Part shown: positions 8,887 through 36,506 of the stretch, in pieces
How positions within the stretch are numbered: the stretch's first letter is position 1
Layout: every line of letters begins with the position of its first letter
Virus genome (UHGV): UHGV-0127942
Direction: 5' to 3' (one strand)
Source: a virus
Length of the DNA: 40,194 nt
Notes under the pieces: model-generated
Databases searched by the model: none
What the model was told of the DNA's origin: nothing
Seen by the model: the letters and a program-made list of their open reading frames with translations, nothing else
Made by a program: the position numbers and the translations under genes

Positions 8887-8915
8887 TTGATTTCGTGTCT
8901 TATGTGGTTTTTAAT
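8887..8915 (+). promoter_or_regulatory. Middle-operon promoter, sigma70-like
   Basis: TTGATT, 17-bp spacer containing TATGTGGTT, -10-like TTTAAT; bracketed by two operator palindromes. Confidence 0.45.
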
Positions 8916-8929
8916 TACCTCAGAGGTAA
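8915..8929. promoter_or_regulatory. Operator-like palindrome TTACC-N5-GGTAA overlapping the RBS of the gene at 8933
   Basis: Perfect site; its right half contains the GAGG Shine-Dalgarno 4 nt before the ATG. Confidence 0.6.
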
Positions 8930-8932
8930 ATC

Positions 8933-9277
8933 ATGAGAAAACAGATACAGGCTCTTGGTCGACTCAAAACAGGTCAGATGAACAAAACAGAATCTGCGTA
9001 TTGCCAGCACCTTGAGCTGCGTAAACGTGCAGGAGAAATCGTCTGGTATCGATTTGAGGGTATCAAGCTGCGGTTAGCTGACAACACGTTCTATACGCCA
9101 GATTTTGCTGTGATGCTCGCCACCGGCGAGATGGAACTGCACGAAGTGAAAGGTTTCTGGACCGACGACGCCAGGGTGAAAACCAAAGTCGCCGCAGATC
9201 AGTATCCGTTCCGAATCATCGGGGTAACGGTTAAACCAAAGAAAGCAGGTGGTGGCTGGATCATCGAAGAGTTCTGA
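8933..9277 (+). CDS. Hypothetical phage protein, possibly DUF1064-like
   Basis: 114 aa; first gene after the terminator that follows the P-like gene; family assignment is from memory only. Confidence 0.5.
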   Translation: MRKQIQALGRLKTGQMNKTESAYCQHLELRKRAGEIVWYRFEGIKLRLADNTFYTPDFAVMLATGEMELHEVKGFWTDDARVKTKVAADQYPFRIIGVTVKPKKAGGGWIIEEF

Positions 9278-9338
9278 ATCGACGATCTTTTTAGTTATCA
9301 ATGTTATCAATAAGTTATGTGGATAAGCGAGGGTAAAG

Positions 9339-9890
9339 ATGGAAAGTAATATCAAAGGGTTAGTTTCCGCCGGGCATGAGATGGCTTCGGAACTGAAAGC
9401 AGAATGTGGTGCCGTTGATATGCGCAGCGTGGCAAAGCTGATCAGCGATTTGGCAACGCAACTGGAAGTGCAACTGGTGCGTGCTAATGCGCTGGCCGAA
9501 GACCAGCAGAAAGCGATTGAGTCAATTAAGCAGGCTGATTCGGCTGTTAAGTTGGCACACGAGAAGTTTTCGGCGCTGGCAGCGGAGAATGCGGGAATAA
9601 AGTCTGCAATTCCAGAATCACGGGATATTGAAGATGACAATGACAATATGGATGACGTATCTCTCGCGGAAGACTTCGGGTTCAATCATGCAATAGAACG
9701 GATGAGGAGACAGATACCTGAAACCCCAGCCACCGATGCTTTCCTGGCTGAAATTGAACACAAAGCAATCCGCAAGTTCATTAACAGCATTGAACACATC
9801 CTGCGTGACAAGTTGTCACCGTATGACACCGAAGAGATGCTTGAGACTATGCGTATTTTTCTGGAAGAACAGGGAGGCGAACAAAAATGA
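9339..9890 (+). CDS. Hypothetical acidic protein
   Basis: 183 aa, rich in D/E (DIEDDNDNMDD); no recognisable motif. Confidence 0.55.
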   Translation: MESNIKGLVSAGHEMASELKAECGAVDMRSVAKLISDLATQLEVQLVRANALAEDQQKAIESIKQADSAVKLAHEKFSALAAENAGIKSAIPESRDIEDDNDNMDDVSLAEDFGFNHAIERMRRQIPETPATDAFLAEIEHKAIRKFINSIEHILRDKLSPYDTEEMLETMRIFLEEQGGEQK

Positions 9891-10201
9891 CAATCACAAA
9901 ACAACGAGTAGAAAAAATCATATATCGCCATGAAATGGGACTGAGCAGCGATGTCACTGCCGAAGAGGTTTATGACCTGGCTGTACTGGCGCTGAATTTA
10001 TCAAATATCGCAAACCTGAAGCGATACGAGCTTGATATGGATGGTTGTGACTCGTGCGGTCAGGATTGTGGCGCTGACATGACTGAAGATTCTGATGGCG
10101 ATTATGTCCTGTTTGATGACGTGGTTAAGTTGCTTGAGTTTGATACAACCACTCAGAAGTTCGAAAGCCCAGCAAAGGAGGCAGCCAGTGAGCAAGATTG
10201 A
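9887..10201 (+). CDS. Hypothetical acidic protein
   Basis: 104 aa; ATGA overlap with the upstream gene. Confidence 0.5.
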   Translation: MTITKQRVEKIIYRHEMGLSSDVTAEEVYDLAVLALNLSNIANLKRYELDMDGCDSCGQDCGADMTEDSDGDYVLFDDVVKLLEFDTTTQKFESPAKEAASEQD

Positions 10202-10856
10202 TTATCAAAAGCTTCGTGAAATCGCTGAAAAAACAAAAATTGCTGGTGAAGCACCTGTAATGCCTTTCGATCAGCGAATTAATGCGCTTAACGATTTTAT
10301 GAAGCACTTTTCGCCAGATATCGCGCTGGCATTGTTGGATGAATGGGAAAGAAACCAGCAATACATAAAACGCCGCGACCAGGAGAACGAGGAAATTGCG
10401 CTAACGGTAGGGAAGCTGCGCGTTGAGCTGGAAGGCAAAGACAGCAAAATAGCCAATCTTACCGCCGAACGCGATGCTCTTCGTGAAGGTGAGATGGGCG
10501 ACGCTAGGCATAGCAACACACGGGCCGCAGCTGATATCTACTTCCAACTGGTCGAGGAGTGCGAAATTCCTGCTGGCGGATCTCTGGTCGAGTACGTTGA
10601 CGATATGCGCGAGAATCTGGAAGCCGCAGAGAAGCGCATTGCAGAGTTAGAAAGTGGTTCTCAGGCACAAAAGTTAGTTGAAGCAATCATTGTTGCGATA
10701 GAAAACGAACAGGAACGGCTTTTTGATGAAGATTACCTAATGGATTCGAAAGAATGCATTGACGTAATTCGTGAAGAAGTAAAGCGATGGGATGATTCCC
10801 GCAACGCTGGCATTCGCATCAAAGGAGAGGAGCATGGAAATAAAACCAGAAGATGA
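10188..10856 (+). CDS. Hypothetical coiled-coil protein
   Basis: GTG start at 10188 preceded by AAAGGAGG; the ORF-track ATG at 10095 would overlap the upstream gene extensively. Confidence 0.5.
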   Translation: MSKIDYQKLREIAEKTKIAGEAPVMPFDQRINALNDFMKHFSPDIALALLDEWERNQQYIKRRDQENEEIALTVGKLRVELEGKDSKIANLTAERDALREGEMGDARHSNTRAAADIYFQLVEECEIPAGGSLVEYVDDMRENLEAAEKRIAELESGSQAQKLVEAIIVAIENEQERLFDEDYLMDSKECIDVIREEVKRWDDSRNAGIRIKGEEHGNKTRR

Positions 10857-11190
10857 GTTAAGTAATATTGTTTTATTTCCGGTAAAAGAGGATGACCCAC
10901 GTAATCAGGTTAATTTTCTTTATGAGCCATCGGAAAGACCATACTGCCATCACGCTTCTGTCCGGGTTGACGAAAAAGAGCGTCAGGTCCGCTGTAAAAT
11001 CTGCGGTGCAGTTGTGGAGCCATTTGACTGGATGCTCTCTGTGGCGAAAAGAGAAACCAGACTGGCAGATGATGTAAGGCTATTGCGCCAGGAGGAACAG
11101 GAAAGACGGAAAAATATAGAAAAGTTAATTCAGATTGAGCGTAATGCGAAAGCACGGATACGCAGGGTGACAAAATCCAGAACTGAATAG
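10834..11190 (+). CDS. Hypothetical protein with Cys/His cluster
   Basis: Start at 10834 after AAAGGAGAGG; CHH...C-x-x-C motif (YCHHASVRVDEKERQVRCKICG). Confidence 0.5.
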   Translation: MEIKPEDELSNIVLFPVKEDDPRNQVNFLYEPSERPYCHHASVRVDEKERQVRCKICGAVVEPFDWMLSVAKRETRLADDVRLLRQEEQERRKNIEKLIQIERNAKARIRRVTKSRTE

Positions 11191-11285
11191 TTAAATTTAG
11201 CACTGTTAAAAATTTAATCCTTAACCGGAGGGATTTCTGCACCCTCAGAACAGCAGGAGGCCGTCCGAAAGGGCGGTAATAAATA

Positions 11286-11762
11286 ATGCAAGAAATCAAA
11301 GAAAATATCAGACAACAGCTTTACGGGTTTTATATTGCTTATGATTTGTGGCTGAGTAATGGGGCGAAACCAGGTGGGGTGTTTTCTCGAAATTATGGTT
11401 TATGCGCCAATCTTTTCGATTATCTCACATCAATCGGTACCTCCAGCGAAGCGGTACTGGAACAATTACACACGGATTTCAGAAGTGCCGGGCTGTATGA
11501 GGTGTTGCCATTTAACGAGAGTAATGGGCATTACCATGAAGAAAAAAAGAACAACATGTGCCATATGAACCCGGCGCGTGTGTCGTGGGTCAGGGCGCAG
11601 ATGGTGCAGGCAGTGCCGGACGGACTGGTTAAGGCTGTACGCTTCTATGAACAGGTAAAGTGTGAGAATCCGCCAGCTGAAACCGGAGCATGGAAAGACG
11701 CTGTTGACTGGGTGCTCAAAGAGGCTTACCAGGCTGTAAACATTGGTACCAAAGGAGATTGA
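11286..11762 (+). CDS. Hypothetical protein
   Basis: 158-aa ORF co-oriented with neighbours. Confidence 0.55.
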   Translation: MQEIKENIRQQLYGFYIAYDLWLSNGAKPGGVFSRNYGLCANLFDYLTSIGTSSEAVLEQLHTDFRSAGLYEVLPFNESNGHYHEEKKNNMCHMNPARVSWVRAQMVQAVPDGLVKAVRFYEQVKCENPPAETGAWKDAVDWVLKEAYQAVNIGTKGD

Positions 11763-11763
11763 T

Positions 11764-12687
11764 ATGACCACTTTTACCGACAAAGAACTGATTAAAGAAA
11801 TCAAAGAGCGCATAGGCAGCTTGGACGTTCGAGACAATATTGAGCGCCGTGCTTATGAAATTGCTCTGGCATCGCTGGAAGCAGAGGCAGTTATGTTCTG
11901 TATATCAGGACAAAATGTAGATTCAGAAGAACATGTATCAACCAGCAAAGCGGTTGTTGATGCCTGGGTTGAAGAATGGAATCAGGTTGACGGAAGTCCT
12001 GGCGAACCACTGTACAAAACTATGCCACTCTACTATCACGCTGCCTTGCCAGCGCCGGTAGTGCCGGAAGAAGCAACTCCGGAAAATGTAGAAATGCTCT
12101 CTGGCTATGTTTCCACGTACAAATTAACCGATAGCGAGCGCGATATTGCTGCCGAAATATGGAACGCCTGCCGCACCGCCATGCTTCAGTCCGGAAACTT
12201 TCGGGAAAGCAAGAATTCGTCAACCAATAATTTTCGGGAAATCCCGGAAGCGTCAACCAGCTCTCCGGTAACTCCGGCTCTTCTGCCTGGTGGTTTCACC
12301 ATTGAGGAGGCGAAGGAATTACATGAAGACCTGGTACGCAGCCACATAAGCAAGGCCTTAAGTGGCGAAAAGATGAAAAAGAAAGATCGCGATGCTGATT
12401 TACGCTGGATTCATGGCGTTATAGTTCAGGCAGCGTGGTTTGTAAAAGCATCACTGGAGCAGAATGCACTATCGGGCAACTCTCCGGTAACTCCGGATAG
12501 TTGGATAAGCTGTAGTGAGCGAATGCCCGCTCAAGATGATTGGATTTTAATTTATTCAAAGCACGGCGAGTATATGGCAGGCCAGGTGCAAGGGGAATAC
12601 GTGGAGTTGAGCGACGGCACTTTATCGTGGTTAGGGAACGCCTTGTTCTGGATGCCGCTACCAGAACCGCCGCAGGAGGTGAAGTGA
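11764..12687 (+). CDS. Hypothetical protein, C-terminal DUF551-like domain
   Basis: Start at 11764 after AAAGGAG; C-terminus ...LSWLGNALFWMPLPEPP resembles DUF551 phage proteins (from memory); internal repeat NSPVTP encoded by repeated DNA near 12256 and 12480. Confidence 0.5.
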   Translation: MTTFTDKELIKEIKERIGSLDVRDNIERRAYEIALASLEAEAVMFCISGQNVDSEEHVSTSKAVVDAWVEEWNQVDGSPGEPLYKTMPLYYHAALPAPVVPEEATPENVEMLSGYVSTYKLTDSERDIAAEIWNACRTAMLQSGNFRESKNSSTNNFREIPEASTSSPVTPALLPGGFTIEEAKELHEDLVRSHISKALSGEKMKKKDRDADLRWIHGVIVQAAWFVKASLEQNALSGNSPVTPDSWISCSERMPAQDDWILIYSKHGEYMAGQVQGEYVELSDGTLSWLGNALFWMPLPEPPQEVK

Positions 12688-12809
12688 TGAACAAGTGCAA
12701 CGCTCTGCTTTATGCCATGGTGATTGGTTTCGGCCTAGCTGCTGGTATCCGGGTTTATATTACCTGGGAGTCATTAATCAATCTGGCGTGGAGTGCGGTT
12801 CGTGGCTAA
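12687..12809 (+). CDS. Possible small membrane protein (40 aa)
   Basis: ATG at 12687 overlapping the upstream stop; hydrophobic product; overlaps the start of the next ORF so only one may be real. Confidence 0.25.
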   Translation: MNKCNALLYAMVIGFGLAAGIRVYITWESLINLAWSAVRG

Positions 12810-13140
12810 ATCCCCCGCAGAACGCAAAGCCGCGCAGCGCGCTCGGCAGTCCGCCGCCGGTGAGCGCAAAATTGAATTGGTGCTGGATAAGCAGGAGCAG
12901 GAAATGCTGGCGCGGAACTGCGCCGCCCGGCGCCCTGGTCGCGATCCCTATGAAATGGCCGAGTACATCGCGTTACTGATCCGCCAGGATGATGCACGCG
13001 TGCGCGGGCGTATAAAATCGATTAGCAGAAAACGTTGCGGTAAGTGCGGCGAGAAAGTTCCCGTTAATTCATGCCCGTGTAATGGTGACTCGCAATGCTG
13101 GGTGACTAAAGGCTGGCATGAAACGAAATTAATAGTGTGA
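12793..13140 (+). CDS. Hypothetical zinc-ribbon protein, candidate late regulator
   Basis: 115 aa from a GTG start; KRCGKCGEKVPVNSCPCNGDSQCW Cys cluster; sits immediately upstream of a palindrome and terminator that precede the terminase genes. Confidence 0.4.
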   Translation: MRFVAKSPAERKAAQRARQSAAGERKIELVLDKQEQEMLARNCAARRPGRDPYEMAEYIALLIRQDDARVRGRIKSISRKRCGKCGEKVPVNSCPCNGDSQCWVTKGWHETKLIV

Positions 13141-13148
13141 CATGTCAC
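13137..13148. promoter_or_regulatory. 12-bp perfect palindrome GTGACATGTCAC (copy 1)
   Basis: Overlaps the stop codon of the Zn-ribbon gene; 41 bp upstream of the terminator hairpin that precedes the terminase genes. Confidence 0.5.
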
Positions 13149-13189: not shown

Positions 13190-13215
13190 GCCGCCAACTA
13201 TGGCGGCTTTATTTT
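13190..13215 (+). terminator. Intrinsic terminator upstream of the terminase genes
   Basis: Hairpin GCCGCC-AACTAT-GGCGGC followed by TTTATTTT. Confidence 0.6.
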
Positions 13216-13226
13216 GCATGGTACTA

Positions 13227-13241
13227 TTACCACAACGGTAA
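13227..13241. promoter_or_regulatory. Operator-like palindrome TTACC-N5-GGTAA upstream of terminase small subunit
   Basis: Perfect site between the terminator at 13190-13215 and the terS start; an imperfect copy TTACC-N5-GGTTA follows at 13245-13259. Confidence 0.55.
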
Positions 13242-13258
13242 CTATTACCACGGTGGTT

Positions 13259-15401: not shown

Positions 15402-15413
15402 GTGACATGTCAC
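15402..15413. promoter_or_regulatory. 12-bp perfect palindrome GTGACATGTCAC (copy 2)
   Basis: Immediately after the bidirectional terminator hairpin at 15371-15397; 5 nt from the stop of the minus-strand gene 15418-15789. Confidence 0.5.
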
Positions 15414-15824: not shown

Positions 15825-15987
15825 GAACTGGAAGCAATGAGTTATGCCTTCCGTGGCTGTACTGGTTTACAGCATGAAGTCATCGCAATGGCGTCCTGCT
15901 GTAAAAAGAGCGGTGATAGTCCTTCAAGGGAAACCATCACCGCCAAGCCCCTGGAACTTCTGGCATCACGGTCCTTAGGCGTGATTC

Positions 15988-16386: not shown

Positions 16387-16401
16387 TTACCTGAAAGGTA
16401 A
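16387..16401. promoter_or_regulatory. Operator-like palindrome TTACC-N5-GGTAA upstream of the head-gene operon
   Basis: Perfect site 44 bp upstream of a TATGTGGTT element and about 90 bp upstream of the gp6.7-like gene. Confidence 0.55.
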
Positions 16402-16444
16402 TAATTCGTGCGTTAAATGTCAACCATCTACGATAAATAAATCA

Positions 16445-16466
16445 TATGTGGTTAAATTGGTAATAA
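16445..16466 (+). promoter_or_regulatory. Candidate late promoter: TATGTGGTT-N6-TAATAA
   Basis: Conserved element 6 bp upstream of a -10-like hexamer; no good -35; upstream of the gp6.7-like and portal genes. Confidence 0.4.
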
Positions 16467-16491
16467 TTTAATTGCGTACGGAGTCATTGAT

Positions 16492-16698: not shown

Positions 16699-16712
16699 CC
16701 GGAGTCATTGAA

Positions 16713-18685: not shown

Positions 18686-18687
18686 TC

Positions 18688-19383: not shown

Positions 19384-19391
19384 GAGAGGAA

Positions 19392-20873: not shown

Positions 20874-20874
20874 G

Positions 20875-29990: not shown

Positions 29991-29995
29991 ATTAA

Positions 29996-32470
29996 ATGAG
30001 ACAGGAATGTATACAAGCGGTTCAGCAGGCGGCGCAGCGCACGTTAACGGCGCGAGAAATACAGAACATTGAAGACCGCATTTATCGAAATATGCGCTCC
30101 ATTGCTCGTGATGACCCGATGTCGTGGAGACAACTTTCCGAATCAGAGCGGCTATATCGAGCAGCACAATTGGCATCTGAAGAATTACAGCGAGAAGCGG
30201 CATTAAAGAAACGTCGTGTGGCCCTCACTATAGCCGCACGTCAGAGATTGGATAAATTTATCAATAGCTATCAAGGGGCTGATGGGAAACTTGGCGCTCT
30301 TAACCGTACTATTGCTTTTAATGCAGACGGTAAATCGAATTTCCTCTCTGTTGAGTCCAGAACAAAAGCCACTCGTGATTATGCATTGAGTCAATTGCAG
30401 GAGGCATTTGAAGCAGTTGATCCTCGCTTTTTTGGCCTGTTTGAAGATGAAGCTGGCGTGCGTGATCTGGTATATGAAATGCGAGGGCAAAATACTGGCA
30501 ATGCTAAAGCAAGAAAAGGTGCTAAGGCGTGGAGAGAAGTTACAGAGCTGCTGCGCCGCCGGTTTAATGATGCTGGTGGGGACATTGGCTATCTCGAAAA
30601 CTGGGGGATCCCTCAACATCATTCTATGGAAAAGGTTGGGGCGGTATCAAAAGATAAATGGGTTAGCGATGTTATAGGTAAGCTGGATCGCAAATATTAT
30701 ACCCGAGCCGATGGACAACTGATGAACGATGCCGAGTTGTCTGCATTTCTTGGAGAGGCTTATAACACGATCGCTACTGGTGGGCTGAATAAGCTTACTG
30801 ATACCGGAATGCGAATTTCCGGCGCACGTGCTAACCGTGGTAATGCATCACGACAGATACATTTCAAAGATGCAGATTCCTATCTGCAATATCAGCAACT
30901 TTATGGCGATCGCTCTCTATGGGAAATCATGGTCGGTCACCTTGAAGGTATCAGTAAAGATATTGCACTGGTGGAAACATATGGCCCAAACCCCGATCAT
31001 GTTTTCCGCTCTCTTCTTGATCAGGTGAAGGCAGAAACGGCAACAGCTAACCCGAGTAAAACCGGTAAAGTCGAGCGGCTGGCGAACAACACAGAGAATC
31101 TGTACAACTTTATTTCCGGAAAGACACAGCCTGTAGCGAATCCGCACATCGCGCGATGGTCTGACAATATCCGCAACTGGCTGGTTGCCAGCAGACTCGG
31201 ATCCGCGTTGCTGTCATCGTTCTCTGATCTTGGAACCATGTATCTGTCTGCGAAGGTTACCAACCTTCCAATGAACCAGTTATTCCGCAACCAGCTTGAA
31301 GCTATGGACCCAACGAACCGTACAGAACTTGCGCGGGCGCGCCGCGCTGGTCTGGCGATGGAATCTCTACTTGGCAGCGTTAACCGCTGGGCGATGGATA
31401 ATATGGGGCCGTCTGTGTCTCGTTGGGCGGCAACGGCGGTAATGCGTGCCAGTGGGCTTACAGCATGGTCAGATGCGCACAAGCGCGCCTATGGCGTAAC
31501 CATGATTGGAAGCCTGGGAGAAGTAGTGTCACGGACACCAGACCTTCGTAGCCTCGATAATTCTGATTTTCGTATCCTGAAAAGCAAAGGGATTACTGAC
31601 ACAGACTGGAGCGTATGGAAGCTGGCGCAACAGGAGGACTGGGGGAACGGCAATAATACGATGCTGACACCGGAAAGCATTATGCGTATCCCTGATTCAG
31701 CAGTTAAACATCTTGGTGAGCCTGAACGCGTGAAATTTGAGGCAATGCGTAAACTGCTCGGTGCCGTAACTGAAGAAGTTGATATGGCTGTTATTACACC
31801 GGGAGCACGTGAGCAACTGATAACCGGTTCTGGTATTCAGCGTGGAACATGGAAAGGTGAATTAACGAGAAGTGTTTTCCTGTTTAAATCGTTCCCTATC
31901 TCGGTGGTTATGCGTCACTGGTCACGCGCTATGGGTATGCCGTCTGCTGGTGGGCGTGCGGCATATATTGCGACGTTTATTGCCAGTACGACCATTCTTG
32001 GCGCTTTGTCGCAGCAACTTAACGACCTTGCGTCTGGTCGTAATCCTCGCGAGATGACAGGAGAAGATGCTGCTAAATTTTGGCTTGGTGCTCTACTGAA
32101 AGGTGGTGGTCTTGGCCTTTACGGTGACTTTTTATTGTCAGATCACACTAGGTACGGAAGCGGCGCGCTGGCGTCGATGCTTGGCCCGGTAGCTGGTCTG
32201 GTTGATGACGTAGTGAAGATTGCTCAGGGCATACCGTTAAATGCTGTGGAAGGGAAGAGTGAGCAGACTGGTGGTGATCTGGTGAAGCTGGGGAAAGGTT
32301 TGATGCCAGGTGCGAATCTCTGGTACTTAAAGGCGGCTCTCGATCATATGATCTTTAACCAGATGCAGGAGTATTTTTCACCAGGCTATTTGCGTAAAAT
32401 GGAGCAACGTTCGAAGAAAGAGTTTAATCAGACATACTGGTGGCGACCTCAGGATGTCACTCCGCAATAA
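29996..32470 (+). CDS. Internal virion / ejection protein (gp16-position)
   Basis: 824 aa; together with the preceding gene occupies the position of T7 gp16. Confidence 0.5.
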   Translation: MRQECIQAVQQAAQRTLTAREIQNIEDRIYRNMRSIARDDPMSWRQLSESERLYRAAQLASEELQREAALKKRRVALTIAARQRLDKFINSYQGADGKLGALNRTIAFNADGKSNFLSVESRTKATRDYALSQLQEAFEAVDPRFFGLFEDEAGVRDLVYEMRGQNTGNAKARKGAKAWREVTELLRRRFNDAGGDIGYLENWGIPQHHSMEKVGAVSKDKWVSDVIGKLDRKYYTRADGQLMNDAELSAFLGEAYNTIATGGLNKLTDTGMRISGARANRGNASRQIHFKDADSYLQYQQLYGDRSLWEIMVGHLEGISKDIALVETYGPNPDHVFRSLLDQVKAETATANPSKTGKVERLANNTENLYNFISGKTQPVANPHIARWSDNIRNWLVASRLGSALLSSFSDLGTMYLSAKVTNLPMNQLFRNQLEAMDPTNRTELARARRAGLAMESLLGSVNRWAMDNMGPSVSRWAATAVMRASGLTAWSDAHKRAYGVTMIGSLGEVVSRTPDLRSLDNSDFRILKSKGITDTDWSVWKLAQQEDWGNGNNTMLTPESIMRIPDSAVKHLGEPERVKFEAMRKLLGAVTEEVDMAVITPGAREQLITGSGIQRGTWKGELTRSVFLFKSFPISVVMRHWSRAMGMPSAGGRAAYIATFIASTTILGALSQQLNDLASGRNPREMTGEDAAKFWLGALLKGGGLGLYGDFLLSDHTRYGSGALASMLGPVAGLVDDVVKIAQGIPLNAVEGKSEQTGGDLVKLGKGLMPGANLWYLKAALDHMIFNQMQEYFSPGYLRKMEQRSKKEFNQTYWWRPQDVTPQ

Positions 32471-32479
32471 GGAAGTGTT

Positions 32480-32649
32480 GTGTTTTTAATTATTTTGAGT
32501 GTGATAATTTCTGGTGGGTTGTTATTTATTGACCGCTACAAATATTTTCTTAACCCTCAGACTCAAGCTATTTGCTGGTTCATCTTTGTTGTGCAGGGAA
32601 TAGTTCTTGTTGCAAGCCTTATTGAGGGGAGGCCTCTGATTTTTACTGG
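32480..32649 (+). CDS. Possible small hydrophobic protein (about 57 aa)
   Basis: Not in the ORF track; GTG at 32480 five nt after AAGGAAG; product VFLIILSVIISGGLLFIDRY... is strongly hydrophobic. Confidence 0.25.
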
Positions 32650-32665
32650 GTAAATAGGTGACTAC

Positions 32666-32956
32666 ATGCAAGCTATAGGATTCATTGTTTATATCGTCGT
32701 TGGTCTTTTTCAGTTGGCAGCAATTATGGCTGGGCTTGAATCATGGTGGGGATTGCACTGGATAATTGCAGCCCCCATTGCTTTCATCGTGAGCTATATT
32801 CCATTTGTTGGAGCGATTGTTGGTATGGTTGGTGCTGTGGATGTATGGCGGTGGGAGTGGTGGCAGGCTGGCCTTCTCTTCTTTGGTGGGATCATCTTTG
32901 CTATTGTCTGCGGTGGAATGTCATCATTTTTCGAACGGCTATCATTCAGAAAATGA
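32666..32956 (+). CDS. Small integral membrane protein
   Basis: 96 aa with several predicted transmembrane stretches (IVYIVVGLFQLAAIMAGL..., IAAPIAFIVSYIPFVGAIVGMVGAV...); followed by a palindrome and a terminator. Confidence 0.5.
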   Translation: MQAIGFIVYIVVGLFQLAAIMAGLESWWGLHWIIAAPIAFIVSYIPFVGAIVGMVGAVDVWRWEWWQAGLLFFGGIIFAIVCGGMSSFFERLSFRK

Positions 32957-32958
32957 AC

Positions 32959-32970
32959 GTGACATGTCAC
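32959..32970. promoter_or_regulatory. 12-bp perfect palindrome GTGACATGTCAC (copy 3)
   Basis: 3 nt after the stop of the membrane-protein gene and directly abutting the terminator hairpin at 32971-32995. Confidence 0.5.
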
Positions 32971-32995
32971 AGGCCGCTTTCGCGGCCTTTTCTTT
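32971..32995 (+). terminator. Intrinsic terminator after the internal-virion/membrane-protein block
   Basis: Hairpin AGGCCGC-TTTC-GCGGCCT followed by TTTTCTTT. Confidence 0.6.
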
Positions 32996-33251
32996 ATGTG
33001 GTTTGTTTTCGTAATTGTTCGGCACAATAGTCGAGATGTGTTTGCAGATCCCGCATAGACATCTGTGAGCTGGTGACGTAGTTAATCAGTGCAGTCAGTT
33101 CGGCAAGTGGGCCATCGACATTAAATCCATCCTTATCGAGATCCCGGAGTAATTTCATCAAGTGCGATCCCTCCACCAGTGACCTGACGCCTCCCGGCGT
33201 GTGGATCCTTTCGGTAAATCCGTCTTCCAGTGGATAGTGATACTGCTGCAT
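32994..33251 (-). CDS. LexA-controlled small protein, candidate antirepressor
   Basis: 85-aa minus-strand ORF with RBS GGAGAAG; promoter immediately upstream contains a near-consensus LexA box; no protein family I can name. Confidence 0.6.
   Translation of the reverse strand: MQQYHYPLEDGFTERIHTPGGVRSLVEGSHLMKLLRDLDKDGFNVDGPLAELTALINYVTSSQMSMRDLQTHLDYCAEQLRKQTT
32995..33016 (+). promoter_or_regulatory. Candidate promoter: TATGTGGTTT-N6-GTAATT
   Basis: Perfect 10-mer immediately after the terminator at 32971-32995; would transcribe antisense across the LexA-controlled gene. Confidence 0.35.
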
Positions 33252-33270
33252 CTTATCTTCTCCATGTAAT

Positions 33271-33290
33271 AACTGTATATTTATACAGTA
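33271..33290 (-). promoter_or_regulatory. LexA (SOS) box within the promoter of the minus-strand gene 32994-33251
   Basis: CTGT-ATATTTAT-ACAG (core 33273-33288); minus-strand 20-mer TACTGTATAAATATACAGTT matches the remembered LexA consensus TACTGTATATATATACAGTA at 18/20; sits in the spacer between TTGATA and a -10-like hexamer. Confidence 0.75.
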
Positions 33291-33327
33291 TCAAATAATT
33301 TGTTTGCTATCCAGCACGTTTTGCAAA

Positions 33328-33342
33328 TTACCCGAAAGGTAA
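33328..33342. promoter_or_regulatory. Operator-like palindrome TTACC-N5-GGTAA between the LexA-controlled gene and the tail-fibre gene
   Basis: Perfect site 32 bp upstream of TATGTGGTTT (33374-33383) and about 40 bp from the LexA box. Confidence 0.55.
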
Positions 33343-33373
33343 TATCTGTTCATATTCACAGTCTTTCTATCCA

Positions 33374-33398
33374 TATGTGGTTTTTCAGGTAATAGAAT
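33374..33398 (+). promoter_or_regulatory. Candidate late promoter: TATGTGGTTT-N6-TAATAGAAT
   Basis: Perfect 10-mer followed by -10-like TAATAG/TAGAAT, about 50-70 bp upstream of the tail-fibre ATG. Confidence 0.4.
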
Positions 33399-33446
33399 AA
33401 CCAGATATGCGGCGCAACGGGTGCTGCGACTATCTGGAGATTTAAC

Positions 33447-36296
33447 ATGACGGTCTCAACCGAAGTTGACCACAACGAATACACAGGTAACGGCGTTACG
33501 ACATCATTTCCGTATACCTTCCGTATTTTCAAAAAATCCGACCTGGTTGTTCAGGTGTCTGACCTTAACGGTAACGTAACAGAACTAGTGCTGGATGCTG
33601 GTTATACAGTAACAGGGGCGGGAACTTATAGTGGCGGTGCAGTGGTTCTTCCGTCGCCGCTTGCTGCTGGCTGGCGAATCACGATAGAGCGTGTGCTTGA
33701 TGTGGTGCAGGAGACTGATCTTCGCAATCAGGGAAAATTTTTCCCCGAAGTTCATGAAGATGCATTTGACTACCTGACGATGCTGATCCAGCGATGTTTT
33801 GGGTGGTTCAGACGTGCATTGATGAAACCATCTTTGCTTGCAAAATATTACGATGCAAAGCAAAACAGAATTTCCAATTTGGCCGATCCGAAGAACTCTC
33901 AGGATGCTGTAACAAAAAAATATGTGCAAGACTTATATAGTGGGGTAGTTAGGCCTGATAACATCGACAACGCAATGTATGTTACAGATCTCGCTAATGG
34001 CAAATATGACAGCTCTCGCTTGGACATGTCTGTCGGGTATGAGATAAAAACCATTTCAAACTTTGTCAGGATTAATGGGGCTGTTTATCGTGTTACTCCT
34101 GCTGCAGTCGGCATAGTGACAGAAATAACCTCGCGTTACATTTTGGCCGGAGGGAAAAAAAGCTACCTGTCTCATATTTCCAGGCATGTCAGTGGTACGC
34201 GTAGGCCGCTGAACTGGAAATTAGAATTCAGCATCATAGACGATGAGATTACCGCAGATCTTAAAGATCAGTATGGTTACACGACCATGGGATTTCAGGG
34301 GATTTACATAGACAGCAATGATGGAATGGTATACATCGGCTGGCAGACGCTAGACCCCGCATCGGTATGGGTTACGGTGCATGACTGGGTAACAGGAGCA
34401 TTGGTAACACGTCTTCATTTTCCGAATAACGTTGGTGCACCAGAAGGCATCCACGTTTACCGAGTGGCAGGACAGCGTTACATCCTGCTGCCGTACAGCC
34501 CATCTCGCACTATCAGAATTTACCCTATCGAAGATCCGCGTACGCTGGTTGATAAAACGCAGATTACAAACTTCACTGAATCAACACGCCTTGGAGTGCG
34601 ATATCAGTTTAGTGGCTTTGGTAATACCCTGATATACGAAAATGCGGATATGGGTTGGCCGAAAATTTTTGATGTTGAGACAGGTGTATCCAATATCTTT
34701 AACACACTGGATATTAACAGCCTTATAGAAGGATCTTACAGTCCAATGGGGACTATTACGGTTGATGCAAATGTTGGAGGTCGCGGAGCCGGTAAACCAA
34801 AACGGCAGGGTGTCGCTCTTGGTTCTCAACGGATATTTGCTGGTATTGGTGCATCTACCACGGCGGGATCTGGAAATACTTTCGCAGGGTTGCAGGGTTA
34901 TATTGAGTACAGCCTTAATGGTTCAGAATTAGGTCAGTACCTGCTGTCACCTGCAGATTTCAAAACATACTGGGATAGTTATTCAGGGAAGAGTGTTTAC
35001 TCCACTGAAAATGAGGGGGTGCAGTCTTGTGATATTTCTGGCTCTGAGGAATTGTATCTTCTACAGTCTATTCGCTATGACAATGGGGGCGGATCAAATT
35101 ATAGGACTTTAAACATCATTCGCGCTAACTGTCCATCTAATGAACCTGGAACAGTAGACATGACTCCGCTATCCAATGCCTCATCACAGTTATTTAACCC
35201 TCGCGGAAGGGTGATTAACGCTGGCCGTCACCCTGTAAACCCGGCTGATGGTATTGCGCTATTTACATCGGCACAGGCTATTTGTGACTATTTGCGGAAT
35301 ACAGATGCAGGTAGATATGTGACATATCTTGAACAGGATATGCCACTGTTTGAAGGTGGGCCATCTGCGCCAGGACAGATGACGCTGCCAGCATTCTGCC
35401 TATTGCAGATCGACTTCATCAACGGCGATACCTGGGAAATTACAGTTAATGGAACTAACAGGGCTAATAATTATACAGGAAGGATTTCCAAAAACGGCGG
35501 GTACAACTCTTTTACTAAGGTGTCCTCCCGCAGCATGTCGATTCTCGGATCCCCTGGTCTGGTTGATGTATCAATTCGCTCACCTAACTCACTAAATCTT
35601 CCAGAATTTGCTGGAGACTGGTCTACTGGTGTAAGTATAGGAGCTGCAGGTGGGGTGACAAACTGGCAGCCAGAAGGAACAGGTAACGGAGCATTATGGG
35701 AGTCAGGATATGCAAAAAACCGTGTGTTGCAGATATTCATGTCCACAACATCAAAACTGTTCTTCCGCTACGCAGACGATGCTATTCGCGCAGGTAACAC
35801 AGGCTGGGCTGAGGCATGGTCGTCGCTGAACACGACCGTCGATTCAAGTGGTTTCATCAAAAAAGCCTCTCCGGTTGTGAAGATTTTCTCAGACGGTAGT
35901 AGTGAAACAAATCGCGAATCAGATGGGGTAACCGTCACACGGCTGGCATTGGGGGAATATCTGATTGAGGGTTGCGTAGGTCTGAATGCAGATGCTTCAT
36001 GGGGGGGGATTGATGGTGGATTTGAAATACCGCAGGACCGAAACAAGCAGCCGCTCATCTGGCTGGATTATGTTGTTAACCAAGATGGCTCTGTGTTGGT
36101 GAAAACGTTTCACCGCACTCATGATAACTCGCCCGTTTTTGCACGTAACGACATCCCTGGTGTTTCGAACGGTGACCCGATCGACATTCCTGCTAATCAG
36201 TTCGTTTCTGTGCGAGTACAGATGCCTGAGGATTCAGCATGGAATAAGCTTAAGGAACAACTCAATAAGGCTGAACCAATGGAAAAAAATAAGTAA
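33447..36296 (+). CDS. Tail fibre / tailspike protein with T7 gp17-like N-terminal adaptor domain
   Basis: 949 aa; N-terminal about 160 residues (GNGVTTSFPYTFRIF...RISNLADPKNSQDAVTKKYV) resemble the T7 tail-fibre N-terminal domain; divergent C-terminal region. Confidence 0.8.
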   Translation: MTVSTEVDHNEYTGNGVTTSFPYTFRIFKKSDLVVQVSDLNGNVTELVLDAGYTVTGAGTYSGGAVVLPSPLAAGWRITIERVLDVVQETDLRNQGKFFPEVHEDAFDYLTMLIQRCFGWFRRALMKPSLLAKYYDAKQNRISNLADPKNSQDAVTKKYVQDLYSGVVRPDNIDNAMYVTDLANGKYDSSRLDMSVGYEIKTISNFVRINGAVYRVTPAAVGIVTEITSRYILAGGKKSYLSHISRHVSGTRRPLNWKLEFSIIDDEITADLKDQYGYTTMGFQGIYIDSNDGMVYIGWQTLDPASVWVTVHDWVTGALVTRLHFPNNVGAPEGIHVYRVAGQRYILLPYSPSRTIRIYPIEDPRTLVDKTQITNFTESTRLGVRYQFSGFGNTLIYENADMGWPKIFDVETGVSNIFNTLDINSLIEGSYSPMGTITVDANVGGRGAGKPKRQGVALGSQRIFAGIGASTTAGSGNTFAGLQGYIEYSLNGSELGQYLLSPADFKTYWDSYSGKSVYSTENEGVQSCDISGSEELYLLQSIRYDNGGGSNYRTLNIIRANCPSNEPGTVDMTPLSNASSQLFNPRGRVINAGRHPVNPADGIALFTSAQAICDYLRNTDAGRYVTYLEQDMPLFEGGPSAPGQMTLPAFCLLQIDFINGDTWEITVNGTNRANNYTGRISKNGGYNSFTKVSSRSMSILGSPGLVDVSIRSPNSLNLPEFAGDWSTGVSIGAAGGVTNWQPEGTGNGALWESGYAKNRVLQIFMSTTSKLFFRYADDAIRAGNTGWAEAWSSLNTTVDSSGFIKKASPVVKIFSDGSSETNRESDGVTVTRLALGEYLIEGCVGLNADASWGGIDGGFEIPQDRNKQPLIWLDYVVNQDGSVLVKTFHRTHDNSPVFARNDIPGVSNGDPIDIPANQFVSVRVQMPEDSAWNKLKEQLNKAEPMEKNK

Positions 36297-36484
36297 TTAT
36301 TTTCCATATCAGGCATGGCGGAGAAATCATAAGTTTAGTAATTACCACGGCAAGGACGCCACTTATCAACAATGTAATTATCATTTAATTCTCTTGACAT
36401 CCTCTACGCCAAGAAGAACTGGTTTTTACGGCGCACCGGATAAATACGAATAATCAAGAATAATATTGAGTAATAATTATTCTT

Positions 36485-36506
36485 ATATGGTTTGTTGTGT
36501 ATAATT
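36485..36506 (+). promoter_or_regulatory. Candidate lysis promoter: TATATGGTTT-N6-TATAAT
   Basis: 9/10 copy of the element followed after 6 bp by a perfect TATAAT; directly upstream of the holin candidate. Confidence 0.45.

What the first reader, a model, noticed from the sequence alone, without database searches (positions are those of the whole stretch)
8901..36506. Recurrent TATGTGGTTT element about 6 bp upstream of -10-like hexamers at middle, head, tail-fibre and lysis operon starts
Perfect TATGTGGTTT at 8901, 32995 and 33374, with 9/10 copies at 16445 and 36485 (TATATGGTTT followed by a perfect TATAAT). In four cases it is followed after about 6 bp by TAAT-containing -10-like sequence and there is no credible -35, so it occupies roughly the -30 to -20 region. 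This resembles activator-dependent phage promoter classes (the T4 MotA-box middle promoters are an analogy) without an obvious encoded activator. A weaker variant TTATGTGGATAA precedes the gene at 9339.
Basis: partly seen in the sequence, partly recalled or inferred. Interest (0 to 1): 0.6.

Follow-up and report, generated by a model that had tools for sequence, protein, structure and literature searches.

The report
Shared promoter box of ε15-like prophage
A short DNA word (core CATATGTGGTT) sits just upstream of the -10 region in front of the head, tailspike and lysis operons of this phiV10/epsilon15-type prophage and all its relatives, so it very probably marks promoters switched on by one still-unidentified regulator; this is a real and apparently undescribed element, but of a familiar kind.

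Summary
The window is a phiV10/epsilon15-like (Uetakevirus) prophage. The element is real, with corrections. TATRTGGTTW occurs six times, all on the + strand, against 0.23 expected. A matrix built only from orthologous sites in other genomes picks out 33369, 36479, 16440 and 5768 as the top window hits. The refined consensus is wyCCrTATrTGGTTw, an imperfect dyad (AACC-N6-GGTT). It is conserved in front of the portal, tailspike and lysis operons in Escherichia, Salmonella, Enterobacter and Klebsiella phages; only the portal copy could be checked in Citrobacter, Erwinia and Pantoea prophages. These three promoters have a -10-like hexamer but no -35.

In E. coli-type genomes the element also lies in the spacer of the middle-operon promoter (8901) and of PL (5773), and over the -35 of the promoter for the gene at 7002. 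The 32995 copy is the antirepressor's last codons, not a promoter.

Best reading: a binding site for a phage transcription factor that replaces the -35 contact. The binder is not identified.

The parts
33369..33383 (+). Element copy at the tailspike promoter (ATCCATATGTGGTTT).
   Evidence: This is the top matrix hit at 23.1 bits. It is conserved as CATATnnGGTT in phiV10, epsilon15, SPN1S, Tyrion, Kp4865 and a Samsonia prophage.
33388..33398 (+). GGTAATAGAAT: a repressor-type half-site (GGTAAT) overlapping the candidate -10 hexamers TAATAG and TAGAAT of the tailspike promoter.
   Evidence: The block is invariant in six genomes, and conservation stops right after TAGAAT. The transcription start is not mapped.
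36479..36493 (+). Element copy at the lysis-operon promoter (ATTCTTATATGGTTT).
   Evidence: It scores 20.5 bits. The orthologous sites read CCATATrTGGTTTATTGTGTATrAT in five other genomes, and the dyad AACCATATATGGTT is perfect in phiV10 and Tyrion.
36500..36505 (+). TATAAT, the candidate -10 of the lysis promoter, 6 bp after the element.
   Evidence: Read directly from the sequence. Relatives have TATGAT or TATAAT at this position.
16440..16454 (+). Element copy at the portal/head-operon promoter (AATCATATGTGGTTA).
   Evidence: It scores 20.0 bits. It is present in 13 of 13 Uetakevirus-type genomes and in two Pantoea-type prophages. Across the 80 close relatives from IMG/VR (73 compared base by base), GGTT never varies; the other core positions change in a few sequences, most often at the R position.
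16459..16472 (+). GGTAATAATTTAAT: a repressor-type half-site plus overlapping -10 candidates (TAATAA, TAATTT, TTTAAT) of the portal promoter.
   Evidence: The block through GGTAATAATTTAA is invariant in 13 genomes; the last base is T or A. Which hexamer is used is unknown.
8896..8910 (+). Element copy in the spacer of the middle-operon promoter (TGTCTTATGTGGTTT).
   Evidence: It is conserved as TwTrTGGwT at the same position in 12 genomes. Its left half is poor, giving 11.1 bits. It is absent from the Samsonia and Pantoea-type relatives.
8887..8915 (+). Middle-operon core promoter: -35 TTGATT (8887-8892), a 17-bp spacer, and -10-like TTTAAT (8910-8915).
   Evidence: TATTGAww is conserved in all seven genomes compared.
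6927..6941 (+). Dyad AACCAAATCTGGTTG overlapping the -35 (TTGATC, 6939-6944) of the promoter of the Zn-finger gene at 7002-7202 and the replication genes.
   Evidence: It scores 14.2 bits. wCCrwATnyGGTTGATC is conserved in 12 Enterobacteriaceae-type genomes. The Samsonia prophage has a variant, TGCAAATTTGGTTGATC, and the dyad is degenerate in Pantoea-type relatives. The dyad centre lies about -40.5 from the inferred start.
5768..5782 (+). Element copy inside the spacer of the leftward early promoter PL, which runs on the minus strand (TTGACA at 5790-5785, then 17 bp, then AATTAT).
   Evidence: It scores 19.6 bits, although PL sites were not used to build the matrix. It is conserved in phiV10, Tyrion and BUCT554 and absent from the epsilon15, SPN1S and Kp4865 PL regions. 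The promoter was reported by the scan.
32995..33004 (+). Exact TATGTGGTTT that is NOT counted as a member. It overlaps the stop codon and the last codons (Q-T-T-stop) of the antirepressor gene.
   Evidence: Translation is. The site follows the terminator at 32971-32988. It reads TAAGTGGTTT in epsilon15 and TATCTGGTTT in phiV10, with the epsilon15 change synonymous. It scores 11.1 bits, which is background.
8853..8929 (.). Pair of TTACC-N5-GGTAA operators (8853-8867 and 8915-8929), 62 bp centre to centre, bracketing the middle promoter. The second operator covers the -10 to +1 region and the ribosome-binding site.
   Evidence: Operators found, and the same arrangement holds in seven genomes. 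The equivalent epsilon15 site is annotated as 'protein_bind repressor'.
5748..5824 (.). Pair of operators (5748-5762 and 5810-5824), 62 bp apart, bracketing PL.
   Evidence: The epsilon15 equivalents are annotated as repressor sites.
6907..6921 (.). Operator (GTACCTCAAAGGTAA) 19.5 bp, centre to centre, upstream of the dyad at 6927.
16387..16401 (.). Operator upstream of the portal promoter. It overlaps the -10 to +1 region of a divergent minus-strand promoter (TTGACA at 16423-16418) that points at tRNA-Arg and ORF 15418-15789.
   Evidence: TTGACA and the operator are conserved in epsilon15 and in Pantoea-type loci.
33328..33342 (.). Operator between the antirepressor promoter and the tailspike promoter.
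   Evidence: The epsilon15 equivalent is annotated as a repressor site.
5882..6466 (-). Rep, the prophage repressor (SPC32H type), inferred binder of the TTACC-N5-GGTAA operators.
   Evidence: It matches PDB 5D50 chain A 'Repressor' at E = 4e-42. Its N-terminal domain is 38% identical to the CI N-terminal domain of phage pOW20-A, whose operators are also TACC-N5-GGTA.
6621..6851 (+). Cro-like HTH protein, first gene of the rightward operon, followed by the terminator at 6873-6892.
   Evidence: It matches phrog_35. It is found only in Uetakevirus records plus pOW20-A, where the homologue sits in the Cro position.
7002..7202 (+). 66-aa Zn-finger protein (phrog_1081), one unproven candidate binder of the element.
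   Evidence: Family match. It is present in every relative examined. The AlphaFold2 model has pLDDT 90 and no PDB fold match.

Best explanation
The element (consensus w-y-C-C-r-T-A-T-r-T-G-G-T-T-w, an imperfect dyad AACC-N6-GGTT whose right half is the strong one) is a protein-binding site in promoter DNA. It defines a small regulon of this phiV10/epsilon15-type phage.

At the three late promoters (portal/head-tail operon, tailspike, lysis cassette) it occupies roughly -36 to -19. This is where the -35 hexamer is missing, directly upstream of a TA-rich -10-like hexamer. A phage-encoded transcription factor bound there most likely supplies the contact that sigma-70 region 4 cannot make, and so switches these operons on after induction.

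In E. coli-type genomes the same site has been added at three earlier promoters:
- in the 17-bp spacer of the middle-operon promoter;
- in the 17-bp spacer of PL;
- over the -35 of the promoter of the replication operon, centred near -40.5.

In each of these it lies exactly 19.5 bp, centre to centre, from a Rep operator. There it probably modulates early transcription and interplays with the repressor.

What is shown: the existence, orientation, position and conservation of the element, and the absence of a -35 at the late promoters.

What is inferred: that a protein binds the element, that the effect is activation, which hexamer is the -10, and which protein is the binder. Identified Rep, Cro, the PerC-like protein and the 12793-13140 protein are all disfavoured as binder. 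The Zn-finger protein at 7002-7202 and the AlpA-like protein at 3017-3265 remain open, as does an unrecognised phage or host factor.
For: - Enrichment and strand bias are shown.
- The out-of-sample matrix recovers the window sites, including PL, which was not in the training set.
- The element is conserved at orthologous promoters while the flanks diverge. Genomes compared include phiV10, epsilon15, SPN1S, Tyrion, BUCT554 and Kp4865, plus prophages of Citrobacter, Pseudocitrobacter, Superficieibacter, Klebsiella, Erwinia, Samsonia and Pantoea.
- The compared proteins range from 41-60% identity (major capsid, portal, Kp4865) to 99%.
- Among 80 near-identical IMG/VR relatives, GGTT never varies and changes elsewhere in the core are rare, mostly at the R position. 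Seven carry substitutions in the adjacent GGTAATAATTTAA block.
- No sigma-70 promoter is called at the late sites.
- The dyad is perfect (AACCATATATGGTT) at several lysis promoters. This argues for recognition at the DNA level by a dimer.
- No Rfam family overlaps the sites.
- Every + strand operon is bounded by terminators and has its own promoter region, so a factor acting at several promoters fits the layout.
Against: - No transcription start is mapped for any of these promoters, so the -10 register is uncertain. The distance from GGTT to the best hexamer is 0 at the middle promoter, 7 at lysis and 7-10 at portal and tailspike.
- No binder is identified.
- At the middle promoter and PL the site lies in a normal 17-bp spacer. 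That geometry more often represses than activates.
- The half-sites (ACC...GGT) resemble those of the Rep/Cro operators, so a separate factor is not proven.
- The early-promoter copies are missing in Pantoea-type and Samsonia relatives.
Confidence: 0.55

Rival explanations
1. The element is a variant operator of the phage's own Rep/Cro pair. It has the same ACC...GGT half-site core as TTACC-N5-GGTAA, but with one extra base pair between the halves and an A/T-rich centre. Cro (or Rep) binds it, so the late promoters are controlled directly by the immunity proteins rather than by a dedicated late activator. The effect could be repression in the lysogen or Cro-dependent activation after induction.
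For: - The half-sites are similar: TACC-N5-GGTA against AACC-N6-GGTT.
- In Proteus relatives the main operator is yAACC-N5-GGTTr. For example, TCACCAATATGGTTA is almost the same word as the element.
- At the portal and tailspike promoters the element forms TGGTT-N5-GGTAA hybrids with a Rep half-site. At the portal promoter this hybrid is centred 62 bp from a full operator, the same spacing as the operator pairs at PL and the middle promoter.
- The 19.5-bp spacing to operators holds at three promoters.
- The Cro-like gene has the same taxonomic range as the element.
Against: - In true operators the central 5 bp are free, whereas the element's centre (TATrT) is conserved.
- The element is absent from the rep-cro intergenic region, where Cro must act.
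- Rep's N-terminal domain and Cro are homologous to the CI N-terminal domain and Cro of pOW20-A, whose operators have N5 spacing.
- The hybrid GGTAA half-site is not kept in Pantoea-type portal promoters.
Confidence: 0.15
2. The element is a loading site for a Q-like or AlpA-like processive antiterminator. The protein binds the promoter between -35 and -10, transfers to RNA polymerase, and lets it read through the terminators that separate the operons.
For: - At the middle promoter and PL the element lies between -35 and -10. This is where the lambda Q-binding element and the P. aeruginosa AlpA-binding element (GGGACG-N5-GGTA) sit (PMC7969949).
- The phage encodes an AlpA-family protein at 3017-3265. 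It is identical to phiV10p36, annotated as PF05930, and is kept in all relatives.
- Strong terminators follow cro, the replication genes, the middle operon and terL.
Against: - The three late promoters have no -35 and no terminator shortly downstream. No strong internal terminator was found in the 16-kb structural operon.
- Each operon has its own promoter region.
- The AlpA-like protein lies beside recombination genes, and directly next to int in the Samsonia prophage. This fits an excisionase.
- Its helix-turn-helix is N-terminal, unlike P. aeruginosa AlpA as described in the abstract of PMC9371919.
Confidence: 0.1
3. No extra factor is involved. The element is part of the core promoter, read by host RNA polymerase itself. 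For example, TGG-TTwAAT could act as an extended -10-like element, with the upstream CATAT shaping the spacer. Its conservation would then simply reflect promoter strength.
For: - The terS promoter of the same phage is an extended -10 type, TGGTACTAT (13219-13227), which resembles TGGTTAAAT at the portal promoter.
- In Pantoea-type portal promoters, TAATTT follows GGTT directly.
- At the middle promoter, the -10-like hexamer TTTAAT (TTAAAT or ATAAAT in relatives) abuts the element.
Against: - The hexamers that abut GGTT mostly lack the key A at position 2 (TTTAAT, TTAAAT).
- The tailspike promoter has nothing -10-like next to GGTT (TTTTTC).
- The same word occurs at -40.5 at the promoter of 7002, and in reverse orientation relative to PL.
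- The dyad symmetry is unexplained by this reading.
Confidence: 0.1
4. The recurrence is chance plus shared ancestry of duplicated promoter regions, with no function of its own.
For: - With one mismatch allowed, the count in the window alone is not significant: 6 found against 2.49 expected, and 7 of 100 shuffles reach it.
- One of the three perfect copies (32995) is indeed a coding coincidence.
- The reverse complement of PL and the middle promoter align with each other, suggesting duplication.
Against: - The flanks diverge while the core stays fixed across genera.
- The out-of-sample matrix finds four hits of at least 19.6 bits.
- Population-level variation leaves GGTT untouched and rarely touches the rest of the core.
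Confidence: 0.03

Closest known systems
T4 middle promoters (MotA box with MotA/AsiA sigma appropriation)
   Same: In both, a roughly 9-10 bp box centred near -30 replaces the -35 hexamer upstream of a sigma-70 -10, and it marks a temporal class of phage promoters.
   Different: - The sequence is unrelated. From my own knowledge the MotA box is (a/t)(a/t)TGCTT(t/c)A.
- No MotA or AsiA homologue turned up among the regulators scanned.
- The present element is a dyad and also occurs at -19.5 and -40.5.
- The phage is temperate.
Phage P1 late promoters activated by Lpa
   Same: P1 late genes use special promoters that need a phage-encoded activator, Lpa (PMC8198154). From my own memory of Lehnherr et al. 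1992, these promoters have a good -10, no -35, and a short inverted repeat centred near -22. That is the closest architectural match to the lysis promoter here, where the dyad is centred about -26.5 from TATAAT.
   Different: - The repeat sequence is different.
- An Lpa homologue was not searched for specifically and was not seen among the regulators scanned.
- Dependence on the host protein SspA is unknown here.
Lambda Q-binding element and P. aeruginosa AlpA-binding element
   Same: These are protein sites located between -35 and -10 of a promoter (PMC7969949), as at the middle promoter and PL here. An AlpA-family gene is present in the phage.
   Different: - Those promoters have full -35 and -10 elements and a terminator downstream, and the factor acts on elongation.
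- The late promoters here lack a -35 and have no nearby terminator.
SPC32H Rep-Ant-LexA immunity system (Kim & Ryu 2013; Kim et al. 2016; PDB 5D50)
   Same: The window encodes close homologues of both proteins, with a LexA box in front of ant. The TTACC-N5-GGTAA palindromes match the sites annotated as 'repressor' in the epsilon15 record. This is the framework in which the element sits.
   Different: That system explains the operators, not the CATATGTGGTT element. The element is neither annotated in the epsilon15 or phiV10 records nor found in the searchable literature.
Class II activator sites (CRP/FNR at -41.5, lambda CI at PRM)
   Same: At the promoter of the gene at 7002, the dyad overlaps the upstream edge of the -35 and is centred near -40.5. 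From established knowledge, this is the classical position for a dimeric activator that touches sigma region 4.
   Different: This applies to one of the six sites only, and the position rests on an inferred rather than a mapped promoter.

Membership tests
SPC32H-type Rep/Ant immunity module (context of the element) | Repressor homologous to SPC32H Rep | tested here: met
   The protein of 5882-6466(-) matches 5D50_A 'Repressor' at E = 4e-42 over residues 1-190.
SPC32H-type Rep/Ant immunity module (context of the element) | Small antirepressor homologous to SPC32H Ant | tested here: met
   The protein of 32994-33251(-) matches 5D50_E 'Anti-repressor protein' at E = 4.6e-47.
SPC32H-type Rep/Ant immunity module (context of the element) | LexA box at the ant promoter | tested here: met
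   CTGTATATTTATACAG lies at 33273-33288, just upstream of the ant start. LexA binding itself was not tested.
SPC32H-type Rep/Ant immunity module (context of the element) | Palindromic operators bound by Rep | tested here: inconclusive
   TTACC-N5-GGTAA occurs 13 times against 0.65 expected. The sites lie at OL, OR and the operon starts, and the equivalents are annotated as repressor sites in epsilon15. Binding cannot be tested with these tools.
T4 MotA-dependent middle promoter | MotA box (a/t)(a/t)TGCTT(t/c)A centred at -30 | tested here: not met
   The consensus here is CCrTATrTGGTT, which has no resemblance to the MotA box.
T4 MotA-dependent middle promoter | MotA and AsiA encoded by the phage | tested here: not met
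   The candidate regulators scanned against Pfam, PHROGs and NCBIfam gave no MotA or AsiA hit. The phiV10 and epsilon15 records list no such genes. Not every ORF was scanned.
P1 Lpa-type late promoter | Good -10, no -35, and an inverted repeat between about -30 and -15 | tested here: inconclusive
   The lysis promoter fits: dyad, 7 bp, then TATAAT. Transcription starts are unmapped.
P1 Lpa-type late promoter | Lpa homologue and SspA dependence | not tested
   No Lpa search was run, and SspA dependence needs an experiment.
Q / AlpA-type antitermination promoter | Factor-binding element between the -35 and -10 of an otherwise complete promoter | tested here: inconclusive
   This holds at the middle promoter (TTGATT, 17 bp, TTTAAT) and at PL (TTGACA, 17 bp, AATTAT). 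It does not hold at the three late promoters, which lack a -35.
Q / AlpA-type antitermination promoter | Intrinsic terminator downstream that the modified polymerase reads through | tested here: not met
   No terminator lies shortly downstream of the portal, tailspike or lysis promoters. The only strong terminator in 16400-36390 is at 32971.
Canonical sigma-70 promoter | -35 and -10 hexamers with 16-18 bp spacing | tested here: not met
   The consensus scans list no promoter at 16440-16475, 33369-33400 or 36479-36510.

The most novel reading that the evidence does not exclude
The phage has no dedicated late activator and no antiterminator. Instead, the late box is a one-base-pair-expanded version of the immunity operator (AACC-N6-GGTT against TACC-N5-GGTA). 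It is read by the Cro-like protein, or by another form of the Rep/Cro pair. At hybrid sites such as TGGTT-N5-GGTAA, the repressor and the activating protein compete for overlapping half-sites. The whole lytic programme would then be a two-tier cascade: PR makes Cro, and Cro controls every other promoter. Every promoter would be wired directly to the lysogeny switch.
Probability: 0.12. Interest if true: 0.65.

Novelty: new member of a known kind. Interest (0 to 1): 0.42.

Why it matters
Epsilon15, phiV10, SPN1S and SPC32H are working models for virion structure, O157 reporter phages, endolysins and antirepressor-driven induction. Despite this, their late transcription has no described promoters or regulator in the records and papers I could reach.

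The element gives a concrete handle. It comprises three to six defined sites per genome, with a clear consensus and clear mutational targets. These can be used to find the missing regulator and to map the temporal programme. They could also help in choosing or tuning promoters in engineered reporter phages.

The element also shows that in this genus the repressor operators and the late box are physically interleaved at nearly every promoter. That is a different layout from the lambda cascade. If the binder turned out to be Cro or Rep itself, it would be an unusual, compact design. If it is a separate small activator, the finding is a routine addition to the list of phage late-promoter classes.

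Tried and rejected
Literature:
- The epsilon15 genome paper and the two SPC32H papers are not held.
- Full-text searches for the motif strings returned only unrelated primers.
- Searches for Uetakevirus late promoters found nothing.

Candidate binders:
- The protein at 12793-13140 (phrog_536) is disfavoured. A species-level scan gave 32 loci. In 13 of the 19 non-Uetakevirus ones, GTGACATGTCAC sits at the gene's stop codon, and the element and the operators are essentially absent: only one isolated minus-strand TATGTGGTTT was seen.
- The PerC-like protein at 2608-2907 is disfavoured. It is absent from the Pantoea-type prophages that keep the portal box, and from the Samsonia prophage.
- The Cro-like protein and the Rep N-terminal domain are tied to TACC-N5-GGTA through homology with phage pOW20-A.
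- The Zn-finger protein at 7002-7202 gave a confident AlphaFold2 model (pLDDT 90). It had no PDB sequence or fold match, and no name in 42 homologues. It is therefore neither supported nor excluded.

Known host or sigma sites considered by eye and rejected:
- IHF, DnaA box (only the 9316 variant fits), the sigma-54 -24/-12 element, the PhoP box, OmpR and MerR-type 19-bp spacers.

RNA-level reading:
- No Rfam family overlaps the sites, and the dyad symmetry argues for DNA recognition.

Diversity sampling:
- An IMG/VR scan with the portal protein returned only near-identical genomes. These served only for the population-variation check.

Covariation test:
- Proteus and Providencia relatives use other operators. 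The test was inconclusive because the Proteus operator itself resembles the element.

Full report
**What the window is.** Megablast places the window among phiV10/epsilon15-like temperate podophages (genus Uetakevirus). It is 97% identical to HEMP4, phiv142-3, PAS61, ZX5, TL-2011b and phiV10 over the structural region. The gene order matches the annotated phiV10 and epsilon15 records:
- integrase, 50-1306;
- leftward early operon, 1309-5728 (minus strand);
- repressor, 5882-6466 (minus strand);
- cro-like gene, 6621-6851;
- Zn-finger gene, 7002-7202, followed by replication genes to 8815;
- 'middle' operon, 8933-13140;
- terminase, about 13256-15327;
- tRNA-Arg, 15988-16064 (minus strand);
- portal-to-injection-protein operon, 16492-32956;
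- an 85-aa minus-strand gene, 32994-33251;
- tailspike, 33447-36296;
- lysis cassette, from about 36550.

**Checking the observation.** Exact TATGTGGTTT is at 8901, 32995 and 33374. All lie on the + strand.

At one mismatch the count alone is unimpressive: 6 found against 2.49 expected, with 7 of 100 shuffles reaching 6. The degenerate word TATRTGGTTW gives 6 against 0.23 expected, but that word was chosen after seeing the data.

The decisive evidence is comparative. I aligned the orthologous promoter regions of these genomes:
- phiV10, epsilon15, SPN1S, Tyrion, BUCT554 and Kp4865;
- six species-level prophages from Citrobacter, Pseudocitrobacter, Superficieibacter, Klebsiella and Erwinia.

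I then built a 15-bp matrix from the 23 distinct sites, leaving out the window and phiV10, and scanned the window.
- The four best hits are 33369 (23.1 bits), 36479 (20.5), 16440 (20.0) and 5768 (19.6).
- Shuffled windows give a best hit of 13.8 bits on average.
- 5768 is at PL, a class not used to build the matrix.

In 80 near-identical IMG/VR relatives (73 compared base by base), polymorphisms pile up in the flanks and in the free centre of the neighbouring operator. GGTT never changes. The rest of the core changes in only a few sequences, most often at the R position. Seven genomes carry a substitution in the adjacent GGTAATAATTTAA block.

**Refined anatomy.** The consensus is w-y-C-C-r-T-A-T-r-T-G-G-T-T-w. 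GGTT is invariant at the late-promoter, P7002 and PL copies (GGAT replaces it at some middle-promoter copies), and CATAT is nearly invariant. The element is an imperfect dyad, AACC-N6-GGTT. The dyad is perfect (AACCATATATGGTT) at the lysis promoter of phiV10 and Tyrion.

There are three geometries.

(a) Late promoters: portal 16440-16454, tailspike 33369-33383, lysis 36479-36493.
- There is no -35.
- A hexamer follows TGGTT after 7 bp: TAATAA, TAATAG or TATAAT.
- Better TAnnnT hexamers (TAATTT, TAGAAT) lie 3 bp further on at the portal and tailspike promoters.
- At the tailspike promoter, conservation stops exactly after TAGAAT.

(b) Middle promoter and PL.
- The element fills a 17-bp spacer between a conserved -35 and a weak -10.
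- At the middle promoter these are TTGATT (8887-8892) and TTTAAT. At PL they are TTGACA (5790-5785, minus strand) and AATTAT.
- The -10 abuts an operator.
- The reverse complement of PL aligns with the middle promoter.

(c) The promoter of the gene at 7002 (TTGATC at 6939-6944, 17 bp, CAAAAT).
- The dyad 6927-6940 shares its last two bases with the -35.
- Its centre lies about -40.5.

Two Pantoea-type prophages keep the box at the portal promoter (CrTATGTGGTTTAATTT). They lack it at the other three early positions. The late promoters are therefore the core regulon.

**Copies that do not belong.** The copy at 32995 lies right after the terminator at 32971-32988. It overlaps the stop codon and the final Q-T-T codons of the minus-strand gene. 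It reads TAAGTGGTTT in epsilon15, a synonymous change that breaks the CATAT core, and TATCTGGTTT in phiV10. It scores at background.

The variant at 9316 contains TGTGGATAA. From my own knowledge this is the reverse complement of the DnaA-box consensus. It lies only 13 bp from the start codon, which leaves no room for a promoter.

TTACC-N5-GGTAA occurs 13 times (one mismatch allowed) against 0.65 expected. The sites are:
- two bracketing PL (5748, 5810);
- two full matches between rep and cro (6522, 6570), with an apparent third, weaker copy between them seen by eye;
- one before the gene at 7002 (6907);
- two bracketing the middle promoter (8853, 8915);
- two just before terS (13227, 13245);
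- one upstream of the portal promoter (16387);
- one upstream of the tailspike promoter (33328).

The epsilon15 GenBank record annotates the equivalent sites as 'protein_bind: repressor'.

The repressor matches SPC32H Rep (PDB 5D50_A, E = 4e-42). The 85-aa gene matches SPC32H Ant (5D50_E, E = 4.6e-47). A LexA box, CTGTATATTTATACAG, lies in front of it. The immunity module is therefore the known Rep/Ant/LexA system. I know this system from the abstracts of Kim & Ryu 2013 and Kim et al. 2016, which I could not open, and from the description in PMC9638917.

The operator pairs at PL and at the middle promoter are 62 bp apart, centre to centre, in both the window and epsilon15. This fits a Rep tetramer holding two sites, but that is an inference.

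The element is tied to the operators in space. Its dyad centre is exactly 19.5 bp from an operator centre at PL, at the promoter of 7002 and at the middle promoter. At the portal and tailspike promoters it forms TGGTT-N5-GGTAA hybrids with a Rep half-site. The hybrid is not kept in Pantoea-type genomes.

**Who binds it?** I tested the candidates by distribution.

   - A one-genome-per-species scan gave 32 loci.
   - Thirteen are Uetakevirus-like and 19 lie in unrelated prophages.
   - In 13 of those 19, an exact GTGACATGTCAC lies at the gene's stop codon. No TTACC-N5-GGTAA operator is present in any of the 19, and the motif search found only one isolated minus-strand TATGTGGTTT.
   - The same palindrome occurs three times in the window, at 13137, 15402 and 32959, against 0.09 expected.
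   - This protein therefore goes with that palindrome, not with the box.

2. The Cro-like protein.
   - It occurs only in Uetakevirus records plus Psychrobacter phage pOW20-A.
   - In pOW20-A the homologue sits in the Cro position beside a CI-like repressor.
   - The operators there are ATACCTGTCAGGTAA, TCACCTACTAGGTAT and ATACCTAGCAGGTAT, the same TACC-N5-GGTA type.
   - The Cro HTH regions are 48% identical, and Rep's N-terminal domain is 38% identical to the CI N-terminal domain.
   - Rep and Cro are therefore accounted for by the operators.

3. The PerC-like protein is absent from the Pantoea-type prophages and from the Samsonia prophage.

4. Two candidates are present everywhere but have nothing specific linking them to the box.
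   - The Zn-finger protein at 7002-7202: the AlphaFold2 model has pLDDT 90, there is no PDB sequence or fold match, and all 42 homologues are unnamed.
   - The AlpA-family protein at 3017-3265.

The binder remains unknown. My rough split is: Zn-finger protein 0.3, AlpA-like 0.15, Rep/Cro 0.15, the 12793-13140 protein 0.1, and another phage or host factor 0.3.

**Mechanism.** The most economical model is an activator site that substitutes for the missing -35 at three late promoters. In E. coli-type phages the same protein would also touch three earlier promoters. Support comes from the position, the orientation, the missing -35, the dyad symmetry and the conservation. Every + strand operon is closed by a terminator and has its own promoter region, so a multi-promoter factor rather than a single antitermination event is expected.

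Weak points of this model:
- no mapped transcription starts;
- variable distance to the best -10;
- a spacer position at two promoters that usually means repression.

**Rivals.**
- *A variant Rep/Cro operator.* The Proteus relatives' operator, yAACC-N5-GGTTr, is almost the same word. However, the element's centre is conserved whereas operator centres are free, and the element is absent from the rep-cro region.
- *A Q/AlpA-type loading site.* The P. aeruginosa AlpA-binding element lies between -35 and -10 (PMC7969949). However, the late promoters lack a -35 and have no nearby terminator.
- *A pure core-promoter element.*
- *Chance.*

**Comparison with known systems and novelty.** Functionally the closest are T4 MotA-box middle promoters and P1 Lpa late promoters (PMC8198154 for Lpa; the promoter architecture is from my memory). 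The sequence matches neither, and no homologous activator was seen. The surrounding immunity module is a member of the SPC32H Rep/Ant family.

The box is not annotated in the phiV10 or epsilon15 records, and I could not find it in the searchable literature. I could not read the epsilon15 genome paper, so prior mention there cannot be excluded.

I rate the finding as a new member of a known kind, namely factor-dependent phage late promoters. It is of moderate interest because it makes the unknown late regulator of a well-used phage genus directly testable.

Noticed in passing
window 13137-13148, 15402-15413, 32959-32970; loci L095-L120 at about 10336: The palindrome GTGACATGTCAC occurs three times exactly (4 hits with one mismatch allowed, against 0.09 expected). 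Each copy lies at an operon's 3' end, next to a terminator. Across species it travels with the phrog_536 regulator gene (12793-13140). In 13 of 19 unrelated prophage contexts it sits right at that gene's stop codon. It is probably that regulator's own site, and its function is unknown.
   Followed up: partly
window 5748-5824, 8853-8929, 6522-6584, 13227-13259: TTACC-N5-GGTAA operators lie beside most of the promoter regions examined. The pairs bracketing PL and the middle promoter are exactly 62 bp apart, centre to centre, in both the window and epsilon15. This fits a tetrameric Rep holding two sites. The terS gene has two operators directly before its start.
   Followed up: partly
window 32994-33251 (-), 33273-33288: The 85-aa gene is a close homologue of the SPC32H antirepressor Ant (PDB 5D50_E, E = 4.6e-47). 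It is preceded by a consensus-like LexA box, CTGTATATTTATACAG. Induction is therefore expected to go through LexA-controlled Ant, not through repressor cleavage.
   Followed up: yes
window 33346-33361 and 15857-15872: There are two further CTGT-N8-ACAG words. One (CTGTTCATATTCACAG) lies between the operator and the element upstream of the tailspike gene. It is not kept in phiV10 or epsilon15. The other lies upstream of the minus-strand ORF 15418-15789.
   Followed up: partly
window 13219-13227: TGGTACTAT, an extended -10-type promoter, sits just after the terminator at 13190-13207 and just before the two terS operators. It is conserved as TGTTACTAT in epsilon15. The terminase operon seems to have its own Rep-controlled promoter without the element.
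   Followed up: partly
window 16387-16423 (minus strand): A divergent leftward promoter (TTGACA at 16423-16418, 17 bp, then TACCTT inside the operator 16387-16401) points at tRNA-Arg (15988-16064) and ORF 15418-15789. The 'portal' operator may therefore belong to this promoter. It is conserved in epsilon15 and in Pantoea-type prophages.
   Followed up: partly
window 9318-9326: TGTGGATAA is the reverse complement of the DnaA-box consensus TTATCCACA. It lies 13 bp before the start of the gene at 9339.
   Followed up: no
window 6939-6944: The -35 hexamer TTGATC of the promoter of gene 7002 contains a GATC site that is conserved in nearly all relatives examined. The phage carries a Dam-like adenine methylase gene (1965-2627, minus strand). 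Methylation-sensitive promoter use is conceivable.
   Followed up: no
L112 (Providencia) 3763, 3935, 4007, 6971, 6990; L117 (Proteus) 4888, 4958, 5032, 5808, 8190, 8208: Distant relatives have changed operator specificity. Proteus prophages use yAACC-N5-GGTTr. The Providencia prophage carries two different palindromes side by side at PL and the middle promoter: ATAAACA-N3-TGTTTAT and TTAACC-N5-GGTTAA.
   Followed up: partly
L122 (Psychrobacter phage pOW20-A) 8763-8802, 9645-9710: An otherwise unrelated lambdoid phage, which has a Q-like gene, shares the TACC-N5-GGTA operator type. Its Cro and CI N-terminal domain are homologous to the window's Cro-like protein and to the Rep N-terminal domain. 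This DNA-binding module is therefore exchanged between very different phages.
   Followed up: partly
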